Positions 3,099 to 34,074 of a DNA stretch of 40,295 nucleotides are shown here, piece by piece; the stretch's first letter is position 1; the number at the start of each line of letters is the position of its first letter. The stretch spans positions 1-40,295 of the IMG/VR virus record IMGVR_UViG_3300038530_001416. One strand, given 5' to 3'. This DNA is from a virus (lineage: Duplodnaviria; Caudoviricetes). Both the position numbers and the translations under genes were made by a program. The notes under the pieces are model-generated. The model did no database searches and was not told the origin of the DNA. It saw nothing but the letters and a program-made list of their open reading frames with translations.

Positions 3099-4355
3099 TC
3101 AGTTCACTCTCCTTGCAAGATTATGGATATCTCCCCAAGACATCTCAGCAACTGCTTCAGCAGTGGTTGGGAAACCTTCAGGTAGTTCCATTGCTACCTC
3201 AGTAGCCTTGCGAATTTCATCTTTCTCTGCGGTTAGAGCCTTGCGTAGTTCTGCAAACTCTTCTTTGAGAGCAGACACTTCTGAGTGTGCATCATACTCT
3301 GCTTTCTCTGCTAGAGACTTCTTCATTTCCATCTCTTCAGCGAGCCTAGCCTCAAACTGCTTTGAGAGGTTGTCGTATGCCAACTTCTCAAGTTGTTCAG
3401 CACGATACTGCTCGTATGCTTTCTCAACGTTCTCAGGTGACAAGTCGAGAGTAGTGAAGTCTGCTGAGTCAAGACCCTTGCTTATTGGGCCTAGTTGTCT
3501 TGGCGCAGCGAGAGGTCTTCCGCCACTGACGACTTCTTCGCCAGCACCGTAGTCCCTAGTGGAATCCTCGTCAAGTGCTTTCATCTCATCATCTCCTTTG
3601 TAAGACATCTTGCTCTCGTCATCGTCATCCATCTTCTCGTCAGCCATCATTTTGTCCTCAGACATCATTTTGTCTTCCTCGTCATCCATCTTTTCTTCTT
3701 CCATCATTTCCATTTCTTCCTTTACAACATTTTCTGTTTTTGCACCAGTTGCTTCCTGAACCTGCTTTAGCAGACCATTCAACTCCTCTAGTGCGCTTTC
3801 TAGTTTTTCTGACAAATTATCACCTCCATTTTCGTGTTTTAATATGTCGAATTTTGCTTCGGGGTTTATTCCTTTTTCACATATGGTAACTTCATGCAAC
3901 TCCAAGTTGTCAATCTCGTTGTACTCCCCGTATTCCTCCGATTTTCTTTGTTTCTTTGATATTGCTTGTCCACCAATACTGAATGAGCGTAATGTTCCTT
4001 TTCTAATACCTCTTGCTATTTCCTTAGCCTTTTCTATGTCATCTCTCATTTTGATAACTACATAGAACCCAACGTTGTCAACACCTGTCTTGTGTAATAC
4101 CCCGTTAGTATCTCGATATTGCTCTATTACCTCCCCGACCTGAACATTTGAATGGTTTGACATTACATTTCGATAAGACTTTCTTTCCATGAATTCTGCT
4201 ACTGCTTTTTCCAGTGCTTCAAGAGTAATCAAGTCATTCTGCTTGTCTACTACTTCTATTGATGCATAACCACCGATTGTCAATTCTTCTGACTTTAGTA
4301 TGGTAAATCCATCACTAGATTCCTGTCTAATCAAAACCTCCTGCGGTGCAAACAC
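3099..4355 (-). CDS. Prohead (maturation) protease with C-terminal scaffold domain
   Basis: GYASIEVVDKQND, H in MSNHSN, and LRSFSIGG...LHEVTICEKGINPEA match the HK97/XkdF-type protease; acidic coiled-coil C-terminal half. Confidence 0.9.
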   Translation of the reverse strand: MFAPQEVLIRQESSDGFTILKSEELTIGGYASIEVVDKQNDLITLEALEKAVAEFMERKSYRNVMSNHSNVQVGEVIEQYRDTNGVLHKTGVDNVGFYVVIKMRDDIEKAKEIARGIRKGTLRSFSIGGQAISKKQRKSEEYGEYNEIDNLELHEVTICEKGINPEAKFDILKHENGGDNLSEKLESALEELNGLLKQVQEATGAKTENVVKEEMEMMEEEKMDDEEDKMMSEDKMMADEKMDDDDESKMSYKGDDEMKALDEDSTRDYGAGEEVVSGGRPLAAPRQLGPISKGLDSADFTTLDLSPENVEKAYEQYRAEQLEKLAYDNLSKQFEARLAEEMEMKKSLAEKAEYDAHSEVSALKEEFAELRKALTAEKDEIRKATEVAMELPEGFPTTAEAVAEMSWGDIHNLARRVN

Positions 4356-4394: not shown

Positions 4395-6980
4395 TTACTC
4401 ATCTTCAGGCGAAGAGGCTTCAGGAAGTTCCAAATTACTGTATTTATCATCGCTAATGTTGATTATTCCCTCATTTGAGTCATCATCTAACATCTTCTGT
4501 TGTTTACCTGTGAATACTATCCAAGACTTCTTTTCATTCAACGGAACTACTCTAAAGTGTATTCTAGATTGGAACTTGTCTCCTTCCATTCTATATTCAT
4601 GATATCCATGTTTCTGAACACCAAATATTAGTTCACCACTATCTAGAACCTTAGTGCTATCTATTTTCTCAGAAACCATAGCCGGATACTTTCCTGACTT
4701 TCCAAACAGTTCGTAGATATCTGTTGGTTCATCTATGTCAATTAACCAAGCCATTCTATCTTTCTCAGTTTCTATGATGAAGTCTATGTTCCCATCATCT
4801 CTCTGTCTGACTTCAAACTTACCAGCCATTTCAGAATCCTCTTTGTCTTTCTGTATAACCTCCGGCGAGTTATCGAACTTGCTGTTTGGTAGTTCGATGA
4901 AACTATCCTGTCTTTTCATCCAGTTCATTAGTTCTCTAGGTTGTAGGCTGAATATCTCATCATATGAGTCAGACTCCTCTGCTCTTAGTTTCTCCTCGAT
5001 ATCATCAAAGGACATTGGAGAATCATTTTCCTCTATCATCTCCCTTATAGTGACTCTCAACTTTGATTTTCTAGATTTGATGAACTTCGATAACTGGTCT
5101 CTCATTTCATCCATATTGACCATCGCATTCTTCTCCATCAGTTTGTCTCCCTTCAAACCATAGATGGTGAAGCCATCAACATCGCCCTTGAATATTATTT
5201 CTGCTTCTCCATGAACATAATCTGTGACTATGTACTTACTCACTTTCTTGGAATCCTTTGCCTGTAACTCTGCTACCACTGCTAGTGGGTTGATTAAACT
5301 CTTAGGTGTAGCAATGGGTTCTACTAATCCTGAGAGTGATTTCTTAGTCTTGGATGACAACTGCTCTAAAGTCTTGATTTTGTCCGGCTCATCTACTTCA
5401 GGAAGTTCAATGAGTTTTGCTGAATAAAGACTGAATCCCTCTTTCTTCTTATTCACCTCATCTACCTTAACTCGTATTATGCTACCAACACTGACCTCTA
5501 TCTTGGTATTCAACGCTTTACCAACCGGAGCGTAATCCTTACCTTCGTACTCAACAGATTTCATGTCTCTCTTTTCTTCCGCAGACAATGGCCCTGCACC
5601 CATTGTATAGGAAAACATGCCACTAGCAGTTTTCTTCATGTCTAAGACAATGACATCTAAATCAACAAACTTCTTCCATTTAATCCACTTAGGATTCTTT
5701 CTTTTTCCTATGTAGTATGTGGATTCTATGTCCTTTATCACTACCCCTTCTGCTGTTGGCATTTCCATTATCTTCTCAGCATATTCCCCAACTTCTTTCA
5801 TTGAATCTGCTATTCTAGTATCTTTCTTAGATGGGAATGCTAGTTCCTCTGAGGAGTGTTGTGAAAACTGGTACAGTAGGATGTTTATTCTCTCACGAAG
5901 AGGCTCATCGACTAAATCTCTTCCCTCATGCCTCATTATATCAAAAACATGTAGTCTTAGTTTTCCACCATCTAGTTTCTTCTTGAAGACATGTGTGATT
6001 GTATCTGCTCTGTGTAAAGCCTCATCATCCTTGAACAGCATCAGTTCTCCATCTAGTATGCAATCTCCAAATGCCTTGTTTTCCATTTTTTCAACTTGCT
6101 CAGGACATTTATCTGTGATATCCTTTTCATTGTATGAGAAAATTTTGACTTTGTTGTTGAACTTGTGAATCTGAACTCTCATCCCATCGTACTTCTCTTG
6201 AACCACATACTCCCCACTGAGACCTAGTATCTCCTTCATGTCATCGAGTTCAAAGATTCTATACATTGGCTTGTTAGGTATTAGAAAATCTACGTCAGCC
6301 TTCTCCTCATCAGATTTGGCGATATCCAAGTCTTTCAGATTATTCCATCTCTCTTCCGAGTATTGGCTCTGATAGACCTCCTTAAGTAAAGCAAGAGCCT
6401 TGTTGAACTTTCCTTCGACTCTCTTAGTATCTTTATCATCACCATAATGTTCGATGATATACAGTGGAATGTCCTTAACTTCGATATCCAACCCAATTGA
6501 GTTTTGAGTTATCTCGTCAGGTTTTAGGTTGGCTTCTTCCCATGCTTTCTTTGGCAATGTATTGGCATGGCTTCTGAGAGCATAGTGTATGAATGCAGCA
6601 AATACCGCTTCGTCATCCATCAGGGTTTCTAGTACCTTATTGCCTAATTGTTTTGAGAATGGGTCACTTATTTCTGAGGTTTCAAACCTCATTCTCTTTA
6701 CATCTTCGTATACTTTTCTTGCAACGTTAGACTCAGCATCCGTTGCTTTTTCATCGAAGAGTTCCTTTTCATTTATCTTATCTTTTAGAAGTTCAGAAAA
6801 TTTTCCAAGACCGTCAAAGTTCTCCCTGATGCTCTTCACTGTGTTTTTCCACTTCTTTCCATATTCCTTTGGGTTTTCCTTAGCAGAAAGATAAGCGTAT
6901 CTTACTCTTTCAAAAAAGTCTAACACTCTTTTCGTAAGAGCCTCAGTTTCCTTCTCAAAAGATACGCCCGAAGATTTCAT
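4395..6980 (-). CDS. lig: ATP-dependent DNA ligase with N- and C-terminal extensions
   Basis: Motif I QEKYDGMR, III ILDGEL, IIIa HVFDIM, IV EGVVIK, V WIKWK, then an OB-like domain. Confidence 0.9.
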   Translation of the reverse strand: MKSSGVSFEKETEALTKRVLDFFERVRYAYLSAKENPKEYGKKWKNTVKSIRENFDGLGKFSELLKDKINEKELFDEKATDAESNVARKVYEDVKRMRFETSEISDPFSKQLGNKVLETLMDDEAVFAAFIHYALRSHANTLPKKAWEEANLKPDEITQNSIGLDIEVKDIPLYIIEHYGDDKDTKRVEGKFNKALALLKEVYQSQYSEERWNNLKDLDIAKSDEEKADVDFLIPNKPMYRIFELDDMKEILGLSGEYVVQEKYDGMRVQIHKFNNKVKIFSYNEKDITDKCPEQVEKMENKAFGDCILDGELMLFKDDEALHRADTITHVFKKKLDGGKLRLHVFDIMRHEGRDLVDEPLRERINILLYQFSQHSSEELAFPSKKDTRIADSMKEVGEYAEKIMEMPTAEGVVIKDIESTYYIGKRKNPKWIKWKKFVDLDVIVLDMKKTASGMFSYTMGAGPLSAEEKRDMKSVEYEGKDYAPVGKALNTKIEVSVGSIIRVKVDEVNKKKEGFSLYSAKLIELPEVDEPDKIKTLEQLSSKTKKSLSGLVEPIATPKSLINPLAVVAELQAKDSKKVSKYIVTDYVHGEAEIIFKGDVDGFTIYGLKGDKLMEKNAMVNMDEMRDQLSKFIKSRKSKLRVTIREMIEENDSPMSFDDIEEKLRAEESDSYDEIFSLQPRELMNWMKRQDSFIELPNSKFDNSPEVIQKDKEDSEMAGKFEVRQRDDGNIDFIIETEKDRMAWLIDIDEPTDIYELFGKSGKYPAMVSEKIDSTKVLDSGELIFGVQKHGYHEYRMEGDKFQSRIHFRVVPLNEKKSWIVFTGKQQKMLDDDSNEGIINISDDKYSNLELPEASSPEDE

Positions 6981-8413: not shown

Positions 8414-10048
8414 TCATTGTTGACTAGAATACTCTATATTTTTTCCTTTACCTCTGATACTGACTTTCATCTTAGAGCCATCAGGAAGAGAATAGACATG
8501 ACCATCAAAGTCATTCGTAAGTCTGTCCATTTTTGTTAGAGTTTGTTTCAAGTCTCTTATTTCTTCGTCAGTTCCTTGTTTCATACTTAGGTATGGTAGA
8601 GAAGGGTCTATATTGATGCCTTCAGAATCAATTTCTTCCATACTTGATTGTGCTTTAGACAAGACGTTTCTGACATAGGTATACGCTTTATCTATGAACC
8701 TAAGTGCCGTGTTCACATCTCCTGAAAAGGATGTATATGCGTATGAAGCATTATCACCATAGAATGCATCAGCACTATCTGCTTCCATCAAGTCATCTTC
8801 TTCATCCTTGAAGTTAGATAAATCAACAGATACTTCATAGAAAGTTTTTATCATTTGCTCCTTTACTTTAGAGAAATCGTCATAATCAAATTTTTTGTTT
8901 CTCAAATTATCTGATAGTGCTTTATCGATTTCCTTCAAGTCCAAAGCATTGTCCCTTATCTCCCGCATTAAATTGTATACACTCTGATATTTCTGTCTAG
9001 TCATGGTTCCGCCTGAAGCAGATAGACCGGGTATCTTTTTGATTATGTCCAAGTATAACTTATCGGCATCCTGTCCCTTGTATTGCCTGATTCTATAAAC
9101 TGGCTGTTTGGTTCTTGGGTTTATCTCGGCTACCATTTCGCCCTCCTTATTTCTAGTCATAGATACTTCAACAAATGCAGGAAATAGTCTGCCTCCATAC
9201 TTTTGTTCCATTCTTTCGGGCTTGACTTTACCTGATGCACCTCTAAGGCTTCTGACTAGCACAGTGACATCATTTATGTTACTCTCGTAGATATCTAGAA
9301 AGTCCTCTAACTTAGCGTCAATTATTGGATTCTCTATATCCTTGTCTTCTTCAGTAGCATAAGTATTCAACAGGTCGATTAGAGGTTTTACCCTTTCCTC
9401 AACCTTCTCCTTGTCCAAGTCTAGTTTGTGTAGCATGTACGACTTCTTAACATCACTGTCGAGATAAGCATCAGCGATTATTTTACCAACTTTCTCACCG
9501 ACTTCTATATCGCTTGGATAATGACTACCCAGTTGTATTCTAGATAGTGATATTCTATCTGCTAAATCTTTCAACTCTTTTCTCTTGTTCGGATACTTCT
9601 CTCCGAATATTCGTGCTAATGCATGAGCCTCTATCGCATGACCACTAGGAAATGCAGGACTATCATCAGTGTCTGTTGACGATTCTATTTCCTCACTTAT
9701 CTCAAATGGTCTAGGTCTAGCATATTTCATTTTGAGGCGTATTGTGTATATGTCTATGTCCTTGATTAACTCAATCCAGTCATTTCTTTTCTGTCCTACG
9801 ACCTCTAACATCAAATCATTGTTGTTCTTGTCCAAGTCTTCCATCTCACTATCAGGAATCTTCTTCTCCTTCATTATTCTGATAACTTCAGGTATCTCTT
9901 CCTTGCTATCAGGAAAGGAATACTCAGGAAACTCAACATCAAAGGATGGTGTCGAATCCAGTAGTTTCTTCTTTCCATCACTTAGATTGTTACGGGTAAA
10001 CCTAGACTCCTTCTTCTTGCGAAGTATGTCCATGAATGACCCATCCAT
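8414..10048 (-). CDS. PAP2 / acid phosphatase-superfamily domain protein with long C-terminal extension
   Basis: Three PAP2 motifs: KMKYARPRP, AFPSGH, SRIQLGSHYPSD. Confidence 0.85.
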   Translation of the reverse strand: MDGSFMDILRKKKESRFTRNNLSDGKKKLLDSTPSFDVEFPEYSFPDSKEEIPEVIRIMKEKKIPDSEMEDLDKNNNDLMLEVVGQKRNDWIELIKDIDIYTIRLKMKYARPRPFEISEEIESSTDTDDSPAFPSGHAIEAHALARIFGEKYPNKRKELKDLADRISLSRIQLGSHYPSDIEVGEKVGKIIADAYLDSDVKKSYMLHKLDLDKEKVEERVKPLIDLLNTYATEEDKDIENPIIDAKLEDFLDIYESNINDVTVLVRSLRGASGKVKPERMEQKYGGRLFPAFVEVSMTRNKEGEMVAEINPRTKQPVYRIRQYKGQDADKLYLDIIKKIPGLSASGGTMTRQKYQSVYNLMREIRDNALDLKEIDKALSDNLRNKKFDYDDFSKVKEQMIKTFYEVSVDLSNFKDEEDDLMEADSADAFYGDNASYAYTSFSGDVNTALRFIDKAYTYVRNVLSKAQSSMEEIDSEGINIDPSLPYLSMKQGTDEEIRDLKQTLTKMDRLTNDFDGHVYSLPDGSKMKVSIRGKGKNIEYSSQQ

Positions 10049-15053: not shown

Positions 15054-16487
15054 TCAAAAATTCAAGCCGAGTATCCCCGGCATACTACTCCGAATAGTAG
15101 AGGGTTCATCAAAGATGTCCAAATCATCTAGCAGAATGAACTGTTCTCCTGTTCCTTGTGAAGCCGCATTAGCGAGGGCCAAACTCATCACTAAATCGTC
15201 ATGTGCGCCAACTCCCTCAAACTTGCCACTAGCAGTGATTGAGAACATCGATAGTTCTTCTATCAGCGCATTAGTAAGTCTTCTACTTGCATTGTCACCA
15301 TACGGCATGATTATCTTCTGATTCTCTATATTCATTTGGAGATTTAGAATTATCTCCTGTTTCTTCTTTCTAGTTGTATTGAAATCCCTGACATTCAAAT
15401 CTGTCATATTCTTCAATTCTTGTGTGAATGCCTTTGCGAAGGTGTTGGTCTCAAACAAGATTTCCTCCGGTTCAAACACCTTACCAATCAGTCGTATCTT
15501 CTCTATGTTTTCTCTGAACTCGATGTTCTTTGCCCTATCGACATGAACGATTGCCTTATTTTGCTCATCATCTACTTCTAGAACGGTGATGACATTGTAA
15601 TCGCCATCAGTAGAAATAGCAGGGTCAACACCGACATAGTATCTGTATCCCTTGTCTTTTCTGTTCCCCAACTTCAAAACAAATTCTTTGTTCTTGCACT
15701 TCTCTATGAACTCAGGATTGAATAGTGCAGTGCCTGTTGATATCGGTACACAAAGATACTCTCTTGTAAACTTGAGAGAACCTATCTCAGCCTTCCTCTG
15801 CATGAGTGCATCGAAATCCCAACGTTCCGGCCAAAGGGGTTCATTCAATGCATTCAGACATGGATACTTTGTTACAGTATATGCTTCATTCTCCTCTAAT
15901 TGTGCAAAGATGTCAGTGTAAGTAAACGGCGTTCCAATCATTCTCAACTTAGATGTGTGATGTAGAGTTGGAATCATATCTCCAAAGAACCAATCGGTTA
16001 CTCTCTGAATACCAGCGAGACTGAACTCCTTCAAGGGGTCGTCAATGATAATCTCCTGCGGGTGAAGACCACGAATCTGAGAACCAACGGAACGCTCTAA
16101 AATCGCATTACCGTTGGTTAGTTGAATATTACCGATTGCCCATCCACGACTAGGCTTGTATTTTTTCAGTGCTGGATGGTTGAAGTATCTATCAATCTCC
16201 CTCATGTGAACCAATGTCTGTTTTTGGTTAGAGGAGATGTAAAGCATCTGATATGGAGGTTCTTGAAAGATTAGATTCCAAACTACCCAACAATGCATGA
16301 AAACTGATTTTCCGTGGTCTCTTGAACAAATGATAACAGTTCTATCCGTCTTCTCCATTCCATCTAACCATTCTTCCATATATGGTGGAAACATCATTCC
16401 CAATACATTCTTGAAGAAGTATGGAAAGGAGTTCTTTGATAACTCCATATCCATAGAAGACATGAAATCTAGATTATCTACTTCCAT
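15054..16487 (-). CDS. terL: Terminase large subunit
   Basis: Walker A SRDHGKS, Walker B IIIDD, GTP coupling motif, RNase H-like nuclease VGVDPA...HDDLVMSLALA; likely start at MEVDN. Confidence 0.93.
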   Translation of the reverse strand: MEVDNLDFMSSMDMELSKNSFPYFFKNVLGMMFPPYMEEWLDGMEKTDRTVIICSRDHGKSVFMHCWVVWNLIFQEPPYQMLYISSNQKQTLVHMREIDRYFNHPALKKYKPSRGWAIGNIQLTNGNAILERSVGSQIRGLHPQEIIIDDPLKEFSLAGIQRVTDWFFGDMIPTLHHTSKLRMIGTPFTYTDIFAQLEENEAYTVTKYPCLNALNEPLWPERWDFDALMQRKAEIGSLKFTREYLCVPISTGTALFNPEFIEKCKNKEFVLKLGNRKDKGYRYYVGVDPAISTDGDYNVITVLEVDDEQNKAIVHVDRAKNIEFRENIEKIRLIGKVFEPEEILFETNTFAKAFTQELKNMTDLNVRDFNTTRKKKQEIILNLQMNIENQKIIMPYGDNASRRLTNALIEELSMFSITASGKFEGVGAHDDLVMSLALANAASQGTGEQFILLDDLDIFDEPSTIRSSMPGILGLNF

Positions 16488-17050
16488 GAGAAATCCCCCT
16501 TGTATAGTATAGACCAAGCCTTCGCCATAGGTTTAGAGCCAATAGGGAGTAGCATCCAATTGTCTCCATATCTTTTTCTATGGTATTCTAAGACCTCAGA
16601 AGGAATAGCAAGTTTATCCTCTTCGCTAATCTCTGAGTCTTCGGGTGAGTCAATCCAACCAGTTCTTGTCCACTTGCTCTTCCAGTCTCCTGAACCCATT
16701 GACTTAGTATTGACAGCAACTAATGCTGGTTTGTTCATTGAGGAATACTTATCATTCCTCTTTGTGATGAGTCTGTTCGCTACTCCTTTTCTGCGATAGT
16801 CTTGGTGGACACTCATTCCTGCACTTACTATGAACTTACCATTATCTTCAAAACCGCCAAAGGCTATTGGTTTATCACCATCAAAAGCAACGTAGTATAG
16901 AGGATTATTGCTAGAGTATTTGTTACCTCCCCAATCCCTTCTAGGTCTGAAGCCGTTCTTTCTAGGCCAATCCCTAGCATCACCATGAAACTCTCTCATC
17001 AGGTCTAGCATCTCGTCTTCAGAATACAACCTTGAGGAAATAGTTACCAT
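16478..17050 (-). CDS. GNAT-family acetyltransferase
   Basis: Acetyl-CoA binding motif VHQDYRRKGVANRL; YYVAFDGDKPIAFG. Confidence 0.85.
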   Translation of the reverse strand: MVTISSRLYSEDEMLDLMREFHGDARDWPRKNGFRPRRDWGGNKYSSNNPLYYVAFDGDKPIAFGGFEDNGKFIVSAGMSVHQDYRRKGVANRLITKRNDKYSSMNKPALVAVNTKSMGSGDWKSKWTRTGWIDSPEDSEISEEDKLAIPSEVLEYHRKRYGDNWMLLPIGSKPMAKAWSILYKGDFSWK

Positions 17051-27027: not shown

Positions 27028-27141
27028 GTAGGAGTGGCGACAGGCTATACACATAATCGAAGAGTCTCACTCTTCATCATCGTAGTAGTAAAGCACTGTT
27101 GTCACCTCCTAACCCCGACAGGTTATACCAACTAGTTGACA
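27028..27141 (+). ncRNA. Structured non-coding element, copy 1
   Basis: Outer stems taggag/ctccta and tggcgacag/ctgttgtca (G-U pairs on the + strand), inner hairpin gaagagt-ctc-actcttc, then aacc-ccgaca-ggtt. Confidence 0.65.
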
Positions 27142-27170
27142 ACCATATGGTAAGAACGGCTTTGCCAGTG

Positions 27171-27189
27171 AAAAAACCCCGAAGGTAGG
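27171..27189 (-). terminator. UUCG hairpin plus U6 tract ending cassette A
   Basis: Minus strand reads ACC-UUCG-GGG-UUUUUU. Confidence 0.6.
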
Positions 27190-27326
27190 AGAAAGGAAGC
27201 GTGTGATAGTCGGGGCGGGGCTTCCTTCCTCCATTCTTTACTTATTAATCAGGCTGAACGCATATTTCGTATTATTCGGCCCATTTTTTCATAATAAGCA
27301 TGGGTTGAGTTGCTTAACATTCATCA

Positions 27327-27620: not shown

Positions 27621-27664
27621 TGTCTGACAAAGTCGCCTACCATATGGTAAGGCACTTTGTTGCT

Positions 27665-27685
27665 CTGACCCCGTAGGGGAGTCAG
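27665..27685 (-). terminator. UACG hairpin ending cassette B
   Basis: Minus strand CUGA(CUC)CCC-UACG-GGGUCAG. Confidence 0.55.
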
Positions 27686-27847
27686 GACAGGGACAGTTGT
27701 TGCATAAGACTTGCATTCATATCCGATTCATTGCGTAGAGTATATTCCGGCTTCATCTACGGCTGATTACGCTGTGCGAAGTAGTTATGTCGAACTAACT
27801 GTTTGTCCATCATCCCCAATTACTCCCTCAAGGGTAGGAGTTTACGT

Positions 27848-28820: not shown

Positions 28821-28880
28821 TTCAGTAGCAAAGCACCTTACCATATGGTAGTAGCGACTTTGTCAGTGGCGACCCCGAAA

Positions 28881-28896
28881 TGACCCCGAAGGGTCA
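28881..28896 (-). terminator. Perfect cUUCGg hairpin ending cassette C
   Basis: Minus strand UGACCC-UUCG-GGGUCA. Confidence 0.65.
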
Positions 28897-28929
28897 AATC
28901 AGGTGTCTGAGGAGGTCAGGAGGTCAGAC

Positions 28930-29527: not shown

Positions 29528-29643
29528 GTAGGAGAGTGACGACAAGTTACACGCATAAAAAGAGTAATCTCAATTACTCATCATCGTCAAAGAACACTTG
29601 CGTCACCTCCTAACCCCGACAGGTTGCACCAATTTTATTGACA
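29528..29643 (+). ncRNA. Structured non-coding element, copy 2
   Basis: Stems taggag/ctccta, gtgacg/cgtcac and caagt/acttg; inner hairpin gagtaat-ctca-attactc; then aaccccgacaggtt. Confidence 0.65.
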
Positions 29644-29676
29644 ACCATATGGTATGGTAATGCTTTGCTATTAGCA

Positions 29677-29690
29677 CACCCCGAAGGGTG
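29677..29690 (-). terminator. Perfect cUUCGg hairpin ending cassette D
   Basis: Minus strand CACCC-UUCG-GGGUG, 4 nt after the stop codon. Confidence 0.65.
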
Positions 29691-30616: not shown

Positions 30617-31011
30617 TCTTCTTCACCTCTTTTTTGCATCTTTCTCTCAAACGCATTGAACTCCATCTCCTGAAGTCTGACTAACCAGTTCTTGTATTCC
30701 GTGTTAAACTTCCTCTTGTCGTATGTCGTAACGTTACATGACCAATCAGCATCTCTCAATCTCTCGCAGAACTCAAGAGTCATGGTGCGGTAGAACATTC
30801 CCATATCGTATATTGGGTTGGCGAAGTTGCAGAGTAGCATTCTACGCCTGAACTCTTCAGGAGTGATTTTCACTCCCCCATATCTAACACTCATACTTCC
30901 AACTCCTGCATTCTGTGCTAACAGACCAAATCCTAATCCATTAACCAAGTTAATCTCAGTTTCATGGAAGCCTTTCTCTATTCCGTTTACTATTCCTACT
31001 ATTAGTGGCAT
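30613..31011 (-). CDS. Hypothetical protein, first gene of cassette D
   Basis: Starts at the fixed distance from promoter D. Confidence 0.8.
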   Translation of the reverse strand: MPLIVGIVNGIEKGFHETEINLVNGLGFGLLAQNAGVGSMSVRYGGVKITPEEFRRRMLLCNFANPIYDMGMFYRTMTLEFCERLRDADWSCNVTTYDKRKFNTEYKNWLVRLQEMEFNAFERKMQKRGEEE

Positions 31012-31040
31012 ACCCCTATTTCCATTTCACCCCTATGAGG
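31012..31040 (-). promoter_or_regulatory. Leaderless promoter D
   Basis: CCTCATAGGGGTGAAATG + 11 nt + ATG. Confidence 0.7.
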
Positions 31041-31117
31041 TTGGATAGCAAAGCATCCTACCATATGGTAAAAGGTTTGGAACGGAAGTTTCCTGAGCCG
31101 ACACTAGGGGTGGTCAG

Positions 31118-31148
31118 CCCCTTATATATGTGAAACGGAATAAGGGGT
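31118..31148 (+). promoter_or_regulatory. Divergent copy of the same promoter with no ORF behind it
   Basis: CCTTATATATGTGAAACG-GAATAAGGGGT-ATT. Confidence 0.65.
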
Positions 31149-31239
31149 ATTCCGAGAATCAGTTGCGTATTCAGGGTTTGAGTCCTTTTTGCACAACTGT
31201 TTCCTAGACTACTTTTAACAAAACGGTTTGATTTGGTAG

Positions 31240-31620
31240 TAATTTGTATCTACCTCAATATGATATCGTTTTGATTATGACAAAAGGTGTCTCCTATATG
31301 TATGACATATATCATATATGTATATACATATGACATGTGATATTTTTCATATGTAATATCATAGTTGTTCACCTTTTTCGGATTGTTTTGGTATTTTTCA
31401 CTATTTTTCAGTCAGGGTGAAAAATCAAAAAGTGGTCTAAAGGGTGTAGAATCATTGATTTTAATGAATATTTTAATATTTCATATATTTCACTATCTTA
31501 TACTACTACTATATGTCATCATACCTACTACTACCCCTTCTCTCAGAGAGGGGTGAAAAATATGAAAAATTGAAAAATAAAACAAAAACGCTTCACTGCG
31601 CTAATATTCAATTTTACATG
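31240..31620. other. AT-rich region at the strand switch; candidate replication origin or genome end
   Basis: Very low GC; CATAT/ATATG-rich palindromic stretch at 31295-31345; repeated GGTGAAAAAT / TTTTTCAC. Confidence 0.45.
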
Positions 31621-31634
31621 ATGGTGAAATATTA

Positions 31635-32033
31635 GTGGAAAACAAAAACATGATGAAGTTAAGACAAATCGGAGAGAATAGTATGACAGACGGATTTAGT
31701 AAAGCCAACACTAACAAAACAAGAACGACAGAAGTAATGAAGAAGCACAATGAAGCGATTCAAACTAGTATGGTTCAGCATCAGAAACTGATTGCAGAAT
31801 TATTTGATGAGATGAAGTCATTGGTTCTTCAGAAGAACAACCAGTATGGTGATTCGGTCTTAGACCCGAAGAGATATTTCTCTACTGCACCAACTGACGA
31901 ACAAATCAAAGTCAGAATCGATGACAAGTTGAACAGGCTTGTTCTCGGTAATGACTCACTAGAATCAGATGATGATATAATCAAGGACTTGATTGGTTAT
32001 CTGACTCTATTACTCGTTTACAGAAGAAAGTAA
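31635..32033 (+). CDS. DUF1599 / nucleotide-modification-associated domain 1-like protein
   Basis: KNNQYGDS...IKVRIDDKLNRL...DDIIKDLIGY. Confidence 0.75.
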   Translation: MENKNMMKLRQIGENSMTDGFSKANTNKTRTTEVMKKHNEAIQTSMVQHQKLIAELFDEMKSLVLQKNNQYGDSVLDPKRYFSTAPTDEQIKVRIDDKLNRLVLGNDSLESDDDIIKDLIGYLTLLLVYRRK

Positions 32034-32039
32034 ACGTAT

Positions 32040-32830
32040 CACACTCACATATGACTTAGGGAGTCTTTACCGCTCAGGAGTAGGCAGAATTTAGTTTCCC
32101 CTCCTTTGAACGGTCATGGTTTAGCGGCCATGACGGTGAGAGTTTGTAAAGTCAAGTCGTGGGACAGAGGGTTTAGTAATAATAAGGATTGAAGATATAG
32201 GAGCAGACTGGCTATGGTTCACTGCACTCATGACTCAGGCAATGCGGGATTACGCATTTAAGTCCTACATGGGAAGTGGTGTGTAAAATCCATAACAAAC
32301 TTGTTCGCACTTACAAGGAACGTGAGTAGCGGCTTCCCGGTATAAAATATGAAGCAGGATAACAAGGGTCGTAAGTAACATCGAGGCAACTTTCCCGGTT
32401 GCAGTTCCCTACTCCGAATGATGGGCATAGCACCTATCCTTTCCCTCATCAACTCAACAGCAGGTTTACTGTGGTAAAAATGCAGAATCAATAACAGTAG
32501 TGTTAACGTTGTATGCCAACAACTCACTTCAACATTGCATTCTCCTGCTATCCTACTCGCAAGAGCAAGGTGTTCGATTGCGTAAGTCCTGACGAGGCAA
32601 TATGAACTTAAAGAAGACGAAACCAGTTGCGGTGCGAAGTCTTCGCCTTGCTATCCAACTCACTTGTAGTAATGACTACAAACCTACCCCGACAGGGTTT
32701 GAGTAGAGTTTTGTCGTGAAATAAAAAAGGTCGTGCGTAGCATATTGTTTGGATAACAAACCATACTGGGTTTTAGTTTGTGTTCTCCTAGCGACAGAGA
32801 CTGTGGTGGTCTCGACCTTTCTCTACTATT
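32040..32830 (+). ncRNA. Large hairpin-dense non-coding region, candidate structured RNA(s)
   Basis: No credible ORF across ~830 nt; more than ten stems, several with + strand G-U pairs. Confidence 0.55.
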
Positions 32831-32870
32831 ACATTCCTAATAATGAAAATAAGAATAAGGAGAAATAAAA

Positions 32871-33299
32871 ATGAAAATGACAAGAAGATGTGAATATATA
32901 TTGGAAGACGGACATAAGTGCAATGCGGTTTATACTAGTCGTAATAGCCAGCAGAAGTATTGTGACAACCACATAGGTAACACTCAGAGGAACAGTCACC
33001 TAGAGGGTCACACTCCACTGGTGAAAAGCACGAACAGGTATGCTCAAGGTGGCAATAATGACAGTATGCGACAATGGGTAATGCATAAGATGAACATGGA
33101 AAATATCGAGAAGAAGAGGATTGCAGACTTGGAAGCAAAGGTCGCTAGACTTGAGAAGATAATAGATAACATCTCTTCTAACAAGAAGGTATTGATAGGT
33201 GTCTTGAAGGAAGAAATGAGAACTGATTTCTTCAAGCAGAGAGTCGATGCTATCGTGGTTAAGAGATTACAGAAGAGTTTCAGAGGTGAGGAAGAATGA
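32871..33299 (+). CDS. Zinc-finger plus coiled-coil protein
   Basis: C..C...YC..H motif; AAGGAG RBS. Confidence 0.75.
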   Translation: MKMTRRCEYILEDGHKCNAVYTSRNSQQKYCDNHIGNTQRNSHLEGHTPLVKSTNRYAQGGNNDSMRQWVMHKMNMENIEKKRIADLEAKVARLEKIIDNISSNKKVLIGVLKEEMRTDFFKQRVDAIVVKRLQKSFRGEEE

Positions 33300-33484
33300 A
33301 TAAGGAGGCATTGTACTCTGTGATAGCGGAGAGAGTAGAAGAGTTAGAACAAAAGGCATGGCAGATATACATGGAAAATACAGAATTTGACTTTGTGCTT
33401 GATATGCTTGACGAGGATGAAAGAAAAGAGTATGAGGCATTGAATGTCATATTGATTATTGGTGAAAGAGGTGAGGAAGAATGA
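33296..33484 (+). CDS. Hypothetical protein
   Basis: GAGGTGA RBS; ATGA coupling. Confidence 0.7.
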   Translation: MNKEALYSVIAERVEELEQKAWQIYMENTEFDFVLDMLDEDERKEYEALNVILIIGERGEEE

Positions 33485-34074
33485 ATATTTTCGCATTAGA
33501 TATGAGTCCCAAGACATCAGCACAGATGATGTTGGACCAGCATGTTGTGAAGATGCCAACTGAGAGTATGCAGATGATGTCAACTATCGCTACTCATCTT
33601 GGTATCGAGGATGCACCTTACAAGCCTGTGATGTTGAATCATCCTTGCACTATTTGGGCGAGGCAGACTTCACAGAACTATCAGTGGTTGAGAAAGCACT
33701 GCTACTTCTTGTGCAAGGAATATACTGCTAGGTATGGTCGCAAACACAAGGTCGAAGAGACACTTGAGGAGTATGCGAATGTCTTCAACCAAGTTGAGGA
33801 TGTTTTACCTGCAACTGGTCTTACCCCCTTTGGTATCGCTATGGCAGACAAGTATCGCATCGCAAGAGAATCAAATGAGGATGGATTCGATTTCGCAATT
33901 CGTTCTTACAGACATTACTACTTGCAAGGCAAGTGGCAGATTTCATCTTGGAAGACAAAAGAGCCTGATTGGTGGCCGGAAGACCATTATCTCAGGATGT
34001 CTTTTGAGGTTGAACAAGACAACAAAATGTTCCAAGATAGATTGGATAAAGTATTGCAGGAGATGAGAATATGA
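33481..34074 (+). CDS. Pyrimidine-dimer DNA glycosylase (DenV/Pyr_excise-like family)
   Basis: MNIF.LD...A..M.D.HVVKM..E..QMMST...YKP...NHPCTIWAR...NY.WL...EYT.RYG..H. Confidence 0.8.
   Translation: MNIFALDMSPKTSAQMMLDQHVVKMPTESMQMMSTIATHLGIEDAPYKPVMLNHPCTIWARQTSQNYQWLRKHCYFLCKEYTARYGRKHKVEETLEEYANVFNQVEDVLPATGLTPFGIAMADKYRIARESNEDGFDFAIRSYRHYYLQGKWQISSWKTKEPDWWPEDHYLRMSFEVEQDNKMFQDRLDKVLQEMRI

What the first reader, a model, noticed from the sequence alone, without database searches (positions are those of the whole stretch)
32040..32830. ~800-nt ORF-free, hairpin-dense region: candidate large viral ncRNA
The rest of the genome is tightly packed, but this gap contains many stems. Local ones include gtcatggt/gccatgac (~32113-32134), tgcg/cgca, gcaact/ggttgc, taaca/tgtta, gttg/caac, ctc-GCAA-gag (GNRA), gaagac/gtcttc nested in aggc/gcct, tgtagt/actaca, ttgtt/aacaa and gagac/gtctc. 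Long-range pairs include gcagga/tcctgc (32353/32543) and aaaggtcg/cgaccttt (32726/32813). The size is comparable to large phage ncRNAs such as GOLLD and ROOL, but I cannot assign it to a family.
Basis: partly seen in the sequence, partly recalled or inferred. Interest (0 to 1): 0.7.

Follow-up and report, generated by a model that had tools for sequence, protein, structure and literature searches.

The report
Modular pseudoknot RNA array, archaeal virus
An ocean virus, likely of Marine Group II archaea, fills this gene-free gap with a row of four conserved, swappable RNA modules that share one knotted fold found in none of Rfam's families; they are likely cut from one transcript and are predicted to act, beside viral tRNAs, as decoys against the host.

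Summary
The gap 32034-32870 is real and non-coding, but hairpin density is not the evidence: it folds no better than shuffles (z -0.25). Homologues are. About 50 viral loci keep the region, and paired bases change together. It is not one 800-nt RNA but an array split by short C/A-rich linkers: unit A (32047-32447, a two-hairpin arm plus an ornate domain), D (32459-32549), E (32564-32652) and F (32702-32827). All share a core: closing stem, short side hairpin whose loop forms a pseudoknot with an inner segment, second stem. Modules are gained, lost and moved between viruses, and in relatives tRNA genes sit in the same array. RNA-library contigs from four studies cover unit A and stop near its linkers (a weak hint). 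No Rfam match; none in 61 and 151 sampled host-order genomes. Best reading: a polycistronic viral RNA operon processed into stable, protein-binding decoys (function about 0.35). The scan saw a like array on other DNA before (e1-5868795).

The parts
31635..32033 (+). 132-aa ORF of unknown function (phrog_1485) that precedes the array in most relatives; absent at this place in L042/L044/L046/L063/L068, so not required
32038..32046 (+). Linker 1, C/A-rich, the same motif that separates modules and follows tRNA genes in relatives; RNA contigs begin at 32044-32060
32047..32160 (+). Unit A, 5' arm: closing stem 32051-57/32154-60 and hairpin 32113-20/32127-34 with a near-invariant six-base loop (32121-26); missing in L091/L093/L097/L101/L104
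   Evidence: stem paired 0.77 own vs 0.50 permuted, 0 of 5000, 29 distinct pairs from 42 of 49 loci (three rows mis-picked, kept in the count); z -2.34
32167..32447 (+). Unit A, ornate domain: P1 32167-71/32443-47; side loop 32172-83; P2 32184-89/32436-41; P3 32200-03/32412-15; P4 32300-05/32361-66; hairpin 32332-36/32351-55 with invariant A-rich loop; hairpin 32386-91/32397-402; invariant 3' motif 32424-30; pseudoknot target 32416-23 (weak in this clade, strong in relatives)
   Evidence: 48 homologues aligned; P4 and P1 covary; P3, P4, loop stem; pseudoknot swap test 1 of 5000; RNA contigs
32230..32269 (+). About 38-nt insertion of the window's lineage that extends a hairpin tip; read through by an RNA-library contig (X2, 32050-32358, no differences)
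32448..32455 (+). Linker 2; RNA contigs end at 32441 and 32444
32459..32549 (+). Module D: P1 32459-64/32544-49; pseudoknot 32466-72/32494-500; P2 32479-85/32535-41
   Evidence: 27 homologues; pseudoknot swap test 0 of 5000 on 15 distinct pairs; descriptor
32550..32558 (+). Linker 3
32564..32652 (+). Module E, mobile and 90% conserved: P1 32564-70/32646-52; side stem 32572-75/32604-07; loop-loop pairing 32578-81/32634-37; P2 32613-18/32639-44. Absent here in L002/L003/L004/L013; on the other genome arm in L004
   Evidence: 3 of 26 pairs with change on both sides, 98.7% paired
32653..32700 (+). Linker 4 (32653-61) and two small hairpins (32664-81, 32688-97)
   Evidence: z -2.68
32702..32827 (+). 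Module F: P1 32702-08/32821-27; pseudoknot 32712-17/32791-96; P2 32726-33/32813-20; inner hairpin 32798-812
   Evidence: 13 of 26 pairs change on both sides, 0 of 500 shuffles; swap test 0 of 5000; model R1
32828..32836 (+). Linker 5, closing the array
32871..33299 (+). 142-aa ORF with an N-terminal Cys/His cluster, often but not always next downstream
   Evidence: no family above cut-off

Best explanation
The gap is an array of four conserved RNA modules sharing one pseudoknotted core, likely transcribed together from the upstream divergent promoter region, likely cut apart at the C/A-rich linkers, and predicted to act in trans as stable protein-binding decoys that help the virus against its archaeal host. 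Shown: conservation above synonymous sites, covarying stems and pseudoknots, plus-strand polarity, independent gain, loss and transposition of modules, tRNA genes in the same arrays of relatives, and presence of unit A in RNA libraries. Inferred: co-transcription; cleavage at the linkers; protection of both ends by the closing stem and knot. Predicted, untested: the shared core is the handle (for processing, stability or one partner protein), and each module's own invariant loops bind or mimic a host RNA-handling factor, such as a defence ribonuclease or translation factor, as phage tRNAs and pseudo-ToxI do in bacteria. Confidence: architecture about 0.9, processing about 0.6, decoy function about 0.35.
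For: Identity of unit A's ornate domain to L002-L004 is 0.85-0.94 against 0.67-0.82 at third codon positions of the flanking genes. F: 13 of 26 pairs change on both sides, sliding controls collapse. Side-loop/target swap tests: A 1/5000, D 0/5000, F 0/5000. A core descriptor hits 27 times on the sense strand of 22 arrays, 2 on the antisense, 0-7 (mean 2.8) in 10 shuffled sets, with many different pseudoknot sequences (the arrays were chosen by me and the descriptor drawn from them). The F model also picks up D-type and other module types, four in one genome. tRNA-Leu, -Lys, -Glu genes lie in the same arrays, one followed by the same linker. In L042/L044/L046/L063/L068 the array follows the promoter region directly. 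RNA contigs of three studies begin at 32044-32055 and of two studies end at 32441/32444, while contigs of run X20 (library type not on record) cross both linkers: a weak hint of discrete ends. Precedents: pseudo-ToxI arrays of phage PhiTE (PMC3475682, abstract) and phage tRNAs that counter tRNA-cutting defences (PMC11555353, PMC11464382, listing only).
Against: No partner protein, target or host defence was identified; the decoy step rests on analogy. The window itself encodes no tRNA. Contigs cannot show strand, ends or level, RNA libraries may hold DNA, and the runs were chosen for holding this stretch. In the window's own clade the pseudoknot of unit A is weak (2-3 bp). Folding energy is unremarkable. 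The linker motif with one mismatch is barely above chance genome-wide (41 vs 30 +/- 5), so it is a signal only in context. Modules are non-identical and 65-296 nt, unlike antitoxin repeats.
Confidence: 0.4

Rival explanations
1. RNA-only assemblies like GOLLD and ROOL: each module's side-loop pairing is made between copies rather than within one molecule, building oligomers or cages.
For: Each module has its own, mutually different pseudoknot pair; GOLLD and ROOL lie near phage tRNA islands and use covarying kissing loops as bridges between chains (bioRxiv 2024.12.08.627333, passages); the 5'-arm loop and a complementary loop in unit A's domain are both present in 43 loci and both absent in 5.
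Against: No GOLLD/ROOL model match; modules are small, separable and mobile; the middle base of the proposed loop-loop pair varies without compensation.
Confidence: 0.22
2. Catalytic RNAs or relics of them: unit A a cut-down RNase P-like or permuted group-I-like core, E a small self-cleaving ribozyme that frees the modules.
For: One clade's unit A has an arm that resembles the host RNase P's double-T-loop region (host profile hits L233/L085 at E 1.3 and 8.4); short motifs recalled from RNase P region IV and the group I S element occur in unit A; E is 90% identical with invariant loops across viruses whose unit A has diverged.
Against: No Rfam ribozyme hit even at E 5-10; the RNase P-like arm is missing in the window's clade and the P4 pairing is not there (by eye); hosts have a normal RNase P (4 of 5 genomes); a hammerhead core G is A in 4 of 12 E copies.
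Confidence: 0.15
3. Selfish or near-neutral mobile RNA cassettes that insert at the linker and are tolerated.
For: E moves between array positions and genome arms; a contig of run X20 joins the upstream gene straight to E; a protein gene interrupts the array in L084.
Against: Strong purifying selection on unit A and D; no transposase, reverse transcriptase or nuclease nearby; tRNAs share the arrays.
Confidence: 0.1
4. A cis-acting DNA or leader element: replication origin, internal promoter (the A-rich loop at 32337-50 read as a TATA box) or long regulatory 5' leader of the 142-aa gene.
For: GC skew changes sign near 31000-32000; the array lies just inside the rightward transcription unit.
Against: G-U-tolerant, strand-specific pairing; the stem around the A-rich loop is fully paired in 6 distinct variants from 38 loci and RNA contigs read through it; the downstream gene differs between viruses.
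Confidence: 0.08

Closest known systems
GOLLD and ROOL RNAs (Rfam; cryo-EM in bioRxiv 2024.12.08.627333)
   Same: Ornate, pseudoknotted, virus-encoded non-coding RNA of unknown function, near tRNA genes in relatives.
   Different: No model match; archaeal virus; an array of separable 65-400-nt modules with a shared terminal core instead of one 600-800-nt chain.
Type III antitoxin arrays and phage pseudo-ToxI (PMC3475682)
   Same: Tandem pseudoknotted RNA units with a repeated linker; viral RNA array as possible counter-defence.
   Different: Units are non-identical and far longer than the short near-identical repeats (recalled, about 36 nt); no adjacent toxin or nuclease gene found.
Viral tRNA operons (group B magroviruses encode tRNA-Leu and tRNA-Arg, PMC5434244)
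   Same: Polycistronic RNA cluster; tRNAs sit in the same arrays of relatives and can be followed by the same linker.
   Different: The modules are not tRNAs (ARAGORN and Rfam negative in the window).
Archaeal RNase P RNA (RF00373)
   Same: Similar size to unit A; a double-T-loop-like arm in one clade.
   Different: No P4 or catalytic core, no model match, arm dispensable; knot joins the 5' junction strand to the interior, the mirror of RNase P's (recalled).
SRP Alu domain and purine riboswitch aptamer (recalled topology)
   Same: Three-way junction with loop-loop pairing, clearest in E.
   Different: No Rfam match; hosts keep a normal SRP RNA (2 of 5 genomes); no ligand pocket tested.

Membership tests
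GOLLD / ROOL | Match to the Rfam covariance model | tested here: not met
   0 hits at gathering score in the window, none at E<=10 in 31000-33500, only tRNAs in 14 related loci at E<=5
GOLLD / ROOL | One continuous RNA of 600-800 nt | tested here: not met
   modules gained, lost and moved independently; RNA contigs stop at linker 2 (weak)
GOLLD / ROOL | Located near viral tRNA islands | tested here: inconclusive
   met in L031, L100, L101, L103, L104, L250, L251; no tRNA in the window
GOLLD / ROOL | RNA-only nanocage | not testable with these tools
   needs cryo-EM
Archaeal RNase P RNA | Model match and P4 pseudoknot of conserved regions I and V | tested here: not met
   no Rfam hit; host profile gives only E>=1.3 and unit A profile finds nothing in host RNase P; pairing not seen in alignment
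Archaeal RNase P RNA | Double T-loop of regions II and III | tested here: inconclusive
   look-alike arm in the L083/L085/L233 clade only, absent from the window
Hammerhead ribozyme (module E) | Invariant core residues and stems I-III | tested here: not met
   core G replaced by A in 4 of 12 copies, stem I cannot close (by eye); no Rfam hit
Group I intron | P3-P7 core in normal order, guanosine site, interrupted exon | tested here: not met
   S-like motif lies 5' of its would-be partner, no host gene interrupted, no Rfam hit; permuted model not testable
H/ACA guide RNA | ACA box after the stem and two-sided pocket | tested here: not met
   linkers 2, 3 and 4 of the window lack the triplet; the junction has 0-2 nt on the 3' side
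H/ACA guide RNA | K-turn or K-loop | not tested
   no scan was completed
Type III antitoxin / pseudo-ToxI array | Short near-identical tandem repeats | tested here: not met
   units 65-296 nt and unlike each other inside
Type III antitoxin / pseudo-ToxI array | Units fold as pseudoknots | tested here: met
Type III antitoxin / pseudo-ToxI array | Cognate ribonuclease that cuts the linker and is inhibited | not testable with these tools
   flanking genes match no nuclease toxin family
Host-derived RNA | Homologue in Poseidoniales genomes | tested here: not met
   F model 0 of 61, BLAST of the region 0 of 151; sampled, incomplete genomes, no positive control among them

The most novel reading that the evidence does not exclude
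Marine archaeal viruses carry a whole superfamily of RNAs built on one portable pseudoknot chassis into which different functional domains are plugged, arrayed with tRNAs, cut out at a shared linker and swapped between viruses like cassettes: a modular RNA arsenal against archaeal hosts, possibly with new ribozymes (E, unit A) among its cargo.
Probability: 0.35. Interest if true: 0.9.

Novelty: categorically new. Interest (0 to 1): 0.78.

Why it matters
[quoted passage not shown] A shared knotted core carrying exchangeable domains, in tRNA-containing arrays, has no counterpart in Rfam or in the papers I could search. The modules are small enough to transcribe, probe, test for cleavage and image now, without a cultured host. 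The label is for architecture; the function is not shown, and some modules may sit unnamed among the Fremin 2023 candidates that I could not read.

Tried and rejected
Folding energy as support: rejected. Rfam at gathering and loose thresholds: nothing real. BLAST of the gap against 50,697 GenBank phage records: no match. No second copy in the window's own record. D, E and F had no cover in the 7 RNA runs laid; contigs drop short or rare RNAs, so this shows nothing; their expression is open. Depth figures were not used to rank genes. My automatic registers for unit A's P1, P2 and P3 were partly wrong and chosen by best match, so I lean and on the hand-read P3 pairs, not on those permutation figures. 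A covariance model of unit A was too large to calibrate, so hosts were searched for it by BLAST only. L221 (not captured) and L196 (misaligned) were left out of the unit A alignment. A loop-loop pair between the 5' arm and the A-rich loop is left as a lead: co-presence fits, base variation does not. An anti-Shine-Dalgarno role for D's inner strand or the linker was considered; D's strand has a covarying partner inside D, so not adopted. The Atlas look-ups of the two flanking proteins did not complete. Paper searches found no description of this array; two magrovirus papers have no passage on non-coding or intergenic RNA. In Fremin 2023 six contig ids were not found in the three supplements searched; the two alignment archives and three large files could not be read, and I saw 4 of the rows that name archaeal hosts.

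Full report
Setting. The window is a 40,295-base linear virus record, about 42% complete, with capsid, prohead protease, portal, terminase, ATP-dependent ligase and class II ribonucleotide reductase genes. Archaeal-type ribosome-binding sites (by eye) and relatives with tRNA-Leu (group B magroviruses encode one, PMC5434244, passages) make it likely a magrovirus of Marine Group II; I built no tree. Genes diverge from an AT-rich region at about 31250-31630, and the gap is the second element of the rightward unit.

Observation. The gap (32034-32870) has no conserved ORF. It does not fold better than shuffles, and Rfam and ARAGORN find nothing.

Homologues. The window's modules were found in 35, 80, 37, 24 and 51 locus records (5' arm, unit A domain, D, E, F); 48 copies of unit A's domain were aligned. 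That domain is 0.85-0.94 identical to L002-L004 where third codon positions of the neighbours are 0.67-0.82.

It is an array. E is present here in the window and L001, absent here in L002, L003, L004 and L013, and lies on the other genome arm in L004. Other viruses carry other modules, a protein gene (L084) or tRNA-Leu, -Lys and -Glu genes (L031, L100, L101, L103, L104, L250, L251) in the same array. Modules begin and end at a short C/A-rich linker (window 32038-46, 32448-55, 32550-58, 32653-61, 32828-36), which also follows the tRNA in L103. Genome-wide the linker is only slightly above chance.

One shared core. Unit A's domain, D, E and F all have a closing stem P1; a short U/A-rich side hairpin on the 5' strand; a second stem P2; zero to two bases; and the 3' strand of P1. 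RNAalifold on 22 F copies found that the side loop pairs with a segment inside P2's loop, with 8-10 of 22 sequences changed on both sides at four pairs. With the knot written in, 13 of 26 pairs change on both sides, none of 500 shuffles reaches the score, and slid partners collapse (related sequences can beat such shuffles, the slide control is the firmer one). Swapping loops and targets between viruses lowers pairing for D (0 of 5000), F (0 of 5000) and unit A (1 of 5000), though in the window's clade unit A's knot is only 2-3 bp. E is too conserved for much signal: 3 of 26 pairs, one in the loop-loop helix. A descriptor of the core hits 27 times on the sense strand of 22 hand-picked arrays, twice on the antisense and 0-7 times in shuffles; it misses 3 of the 22 arrays and, in this strict form, all but D in the window (a looser form finds D and F). 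The F model also finds D-type and unrelated-cargo modules, four in one genome (4 of 5 records). Inside unit A, P4 and a hairpin covary, P3 shows six different four-base pairings across clades, and the 5'-arm hairpin keeps its six-base loop on 29 different stems.

Transcripts. Of 23 runs listed I laid 8: seven RNA runs from four studies and one of unrecorded type. All seven hold pieces of 32044-32444, some from L004-like relatives. Pieces begin at 32044, 32044, 32049, 32050 (one study), 32053 and 32055 (two more), and end at 32441 and 32444 (two studies, the latter at an adapter); X20 crosses both linkers. These are contigs: no strand, no true ends, no level, and the runs were chosen for this stretch. 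It is a weak hint that unit A is a discrete RNA of about 400 nt. D, E and F are untested.

Host. Genomes reached through a Poseidoniales-titled contig have normal RNase P (4 of 5) and SRP RNA (2 of 5). No homologue of F in 61, or of the region in 151, sampled genomes of that order.

Mechanism. Shown: conserved knotted modules, modularity, company of tRNAs, transcript presence for unit A. Inferred: one early transcript, cut at the linkers, each product clamped at both ends by P1 and the knot. Predicted: the products work in trans as protein-binding decoys or mimics that blunt host RNA-level defence or steer translation, by analogy with pseudo-ToxI (PMC3475682, abstract) and counter-defence tRNAs (PMC10264068, PMC11555353, PMC11464382; search listing only). 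I put that last step at about 0.35; RNA-only cages (bioRxiv 2024.12.08.627333, passages) and catalytic RNA are the main rivals. Resemblances to RNase P, group I introns, hammerheads, H/ACA RNAs and the SRP Alu domain are recalled from memory; each failed or could not pass its membership test.

Novelty. Not in Rfam 15; not found in six paper searches or in passages of PMC5434244 and PMC11706807. Fremin 2023 (PMC10690425; passages and part of the supplements) screened IMG/VR intergenic regions, and its unreadable alignment files may hold single modules. An earlier agent of this scan reported a like array of three pseudoknotted domains on other DNA (e1-5868795), seen after my own analysis; it is not independent support. 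This report adds the shared core across module types, the linker, the mobile module E, the tRNA link and transcript ends. Interest 0.78.

Noticed in passing
window 31506-31600: Strong hairpin in the divergent promoter region (z -3.78); an RNA-library contig of X3 covers 31506-31666. Possibly a leader or another small RNA.
   Followed up: partly
window about 29640-29690, 28830-28900, 27630-27690, 27140-27200 (minus strand): Repeated cassette heads with a hairpin and a ten-base palindrome before small leftward genes; same kind as earlier notes e1-6093638 and e1-6093650.
   Followed up: no
L012 about 4460-4545; also L031, L043, L068, L084, L101, L103: A further highly conserved module of about 85 nt, absent from the window, usually just before F.
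   Followed up: no
L103 about 2840-2935; L101 and L104 after tRNA-Leu: A compact module directly after tRNA-Leu whose hairpin loop can pair with a downstream segment; two copies in L101. Ribozyme-like by eye, no Rfam hit.
   Followed up: no
L031 1437-1732 and 2398-2732: One virus with four core-bearing modules in two arrays plus tRNA-Leu, but without unit A at this place.
   Followed up: partly
L004 1290-1400 (minus strand): Module E inserted among the small leftward genes, outside the main array.
   Followed up: partly
run X20, window 32023 to 32555: A contig joins the upstream gene directly to module E, suggesting a virus variant lacking unit A and D.
   Followed up: no
L001 about 3130-3150: The upstream 132-aa gene lacks 47 bases in this contig, while near-identical L213 has the full gene: a broken allele or an assembly error.
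   Followed up: no
window 8414-10048, 16478-17050, 794-1291, 33481-34074: PAP2-family protein, GNAT acetyltransferase, SAP-domain protein and pyrimidine-dimer glycosylase-like gene.
   Followed up: no
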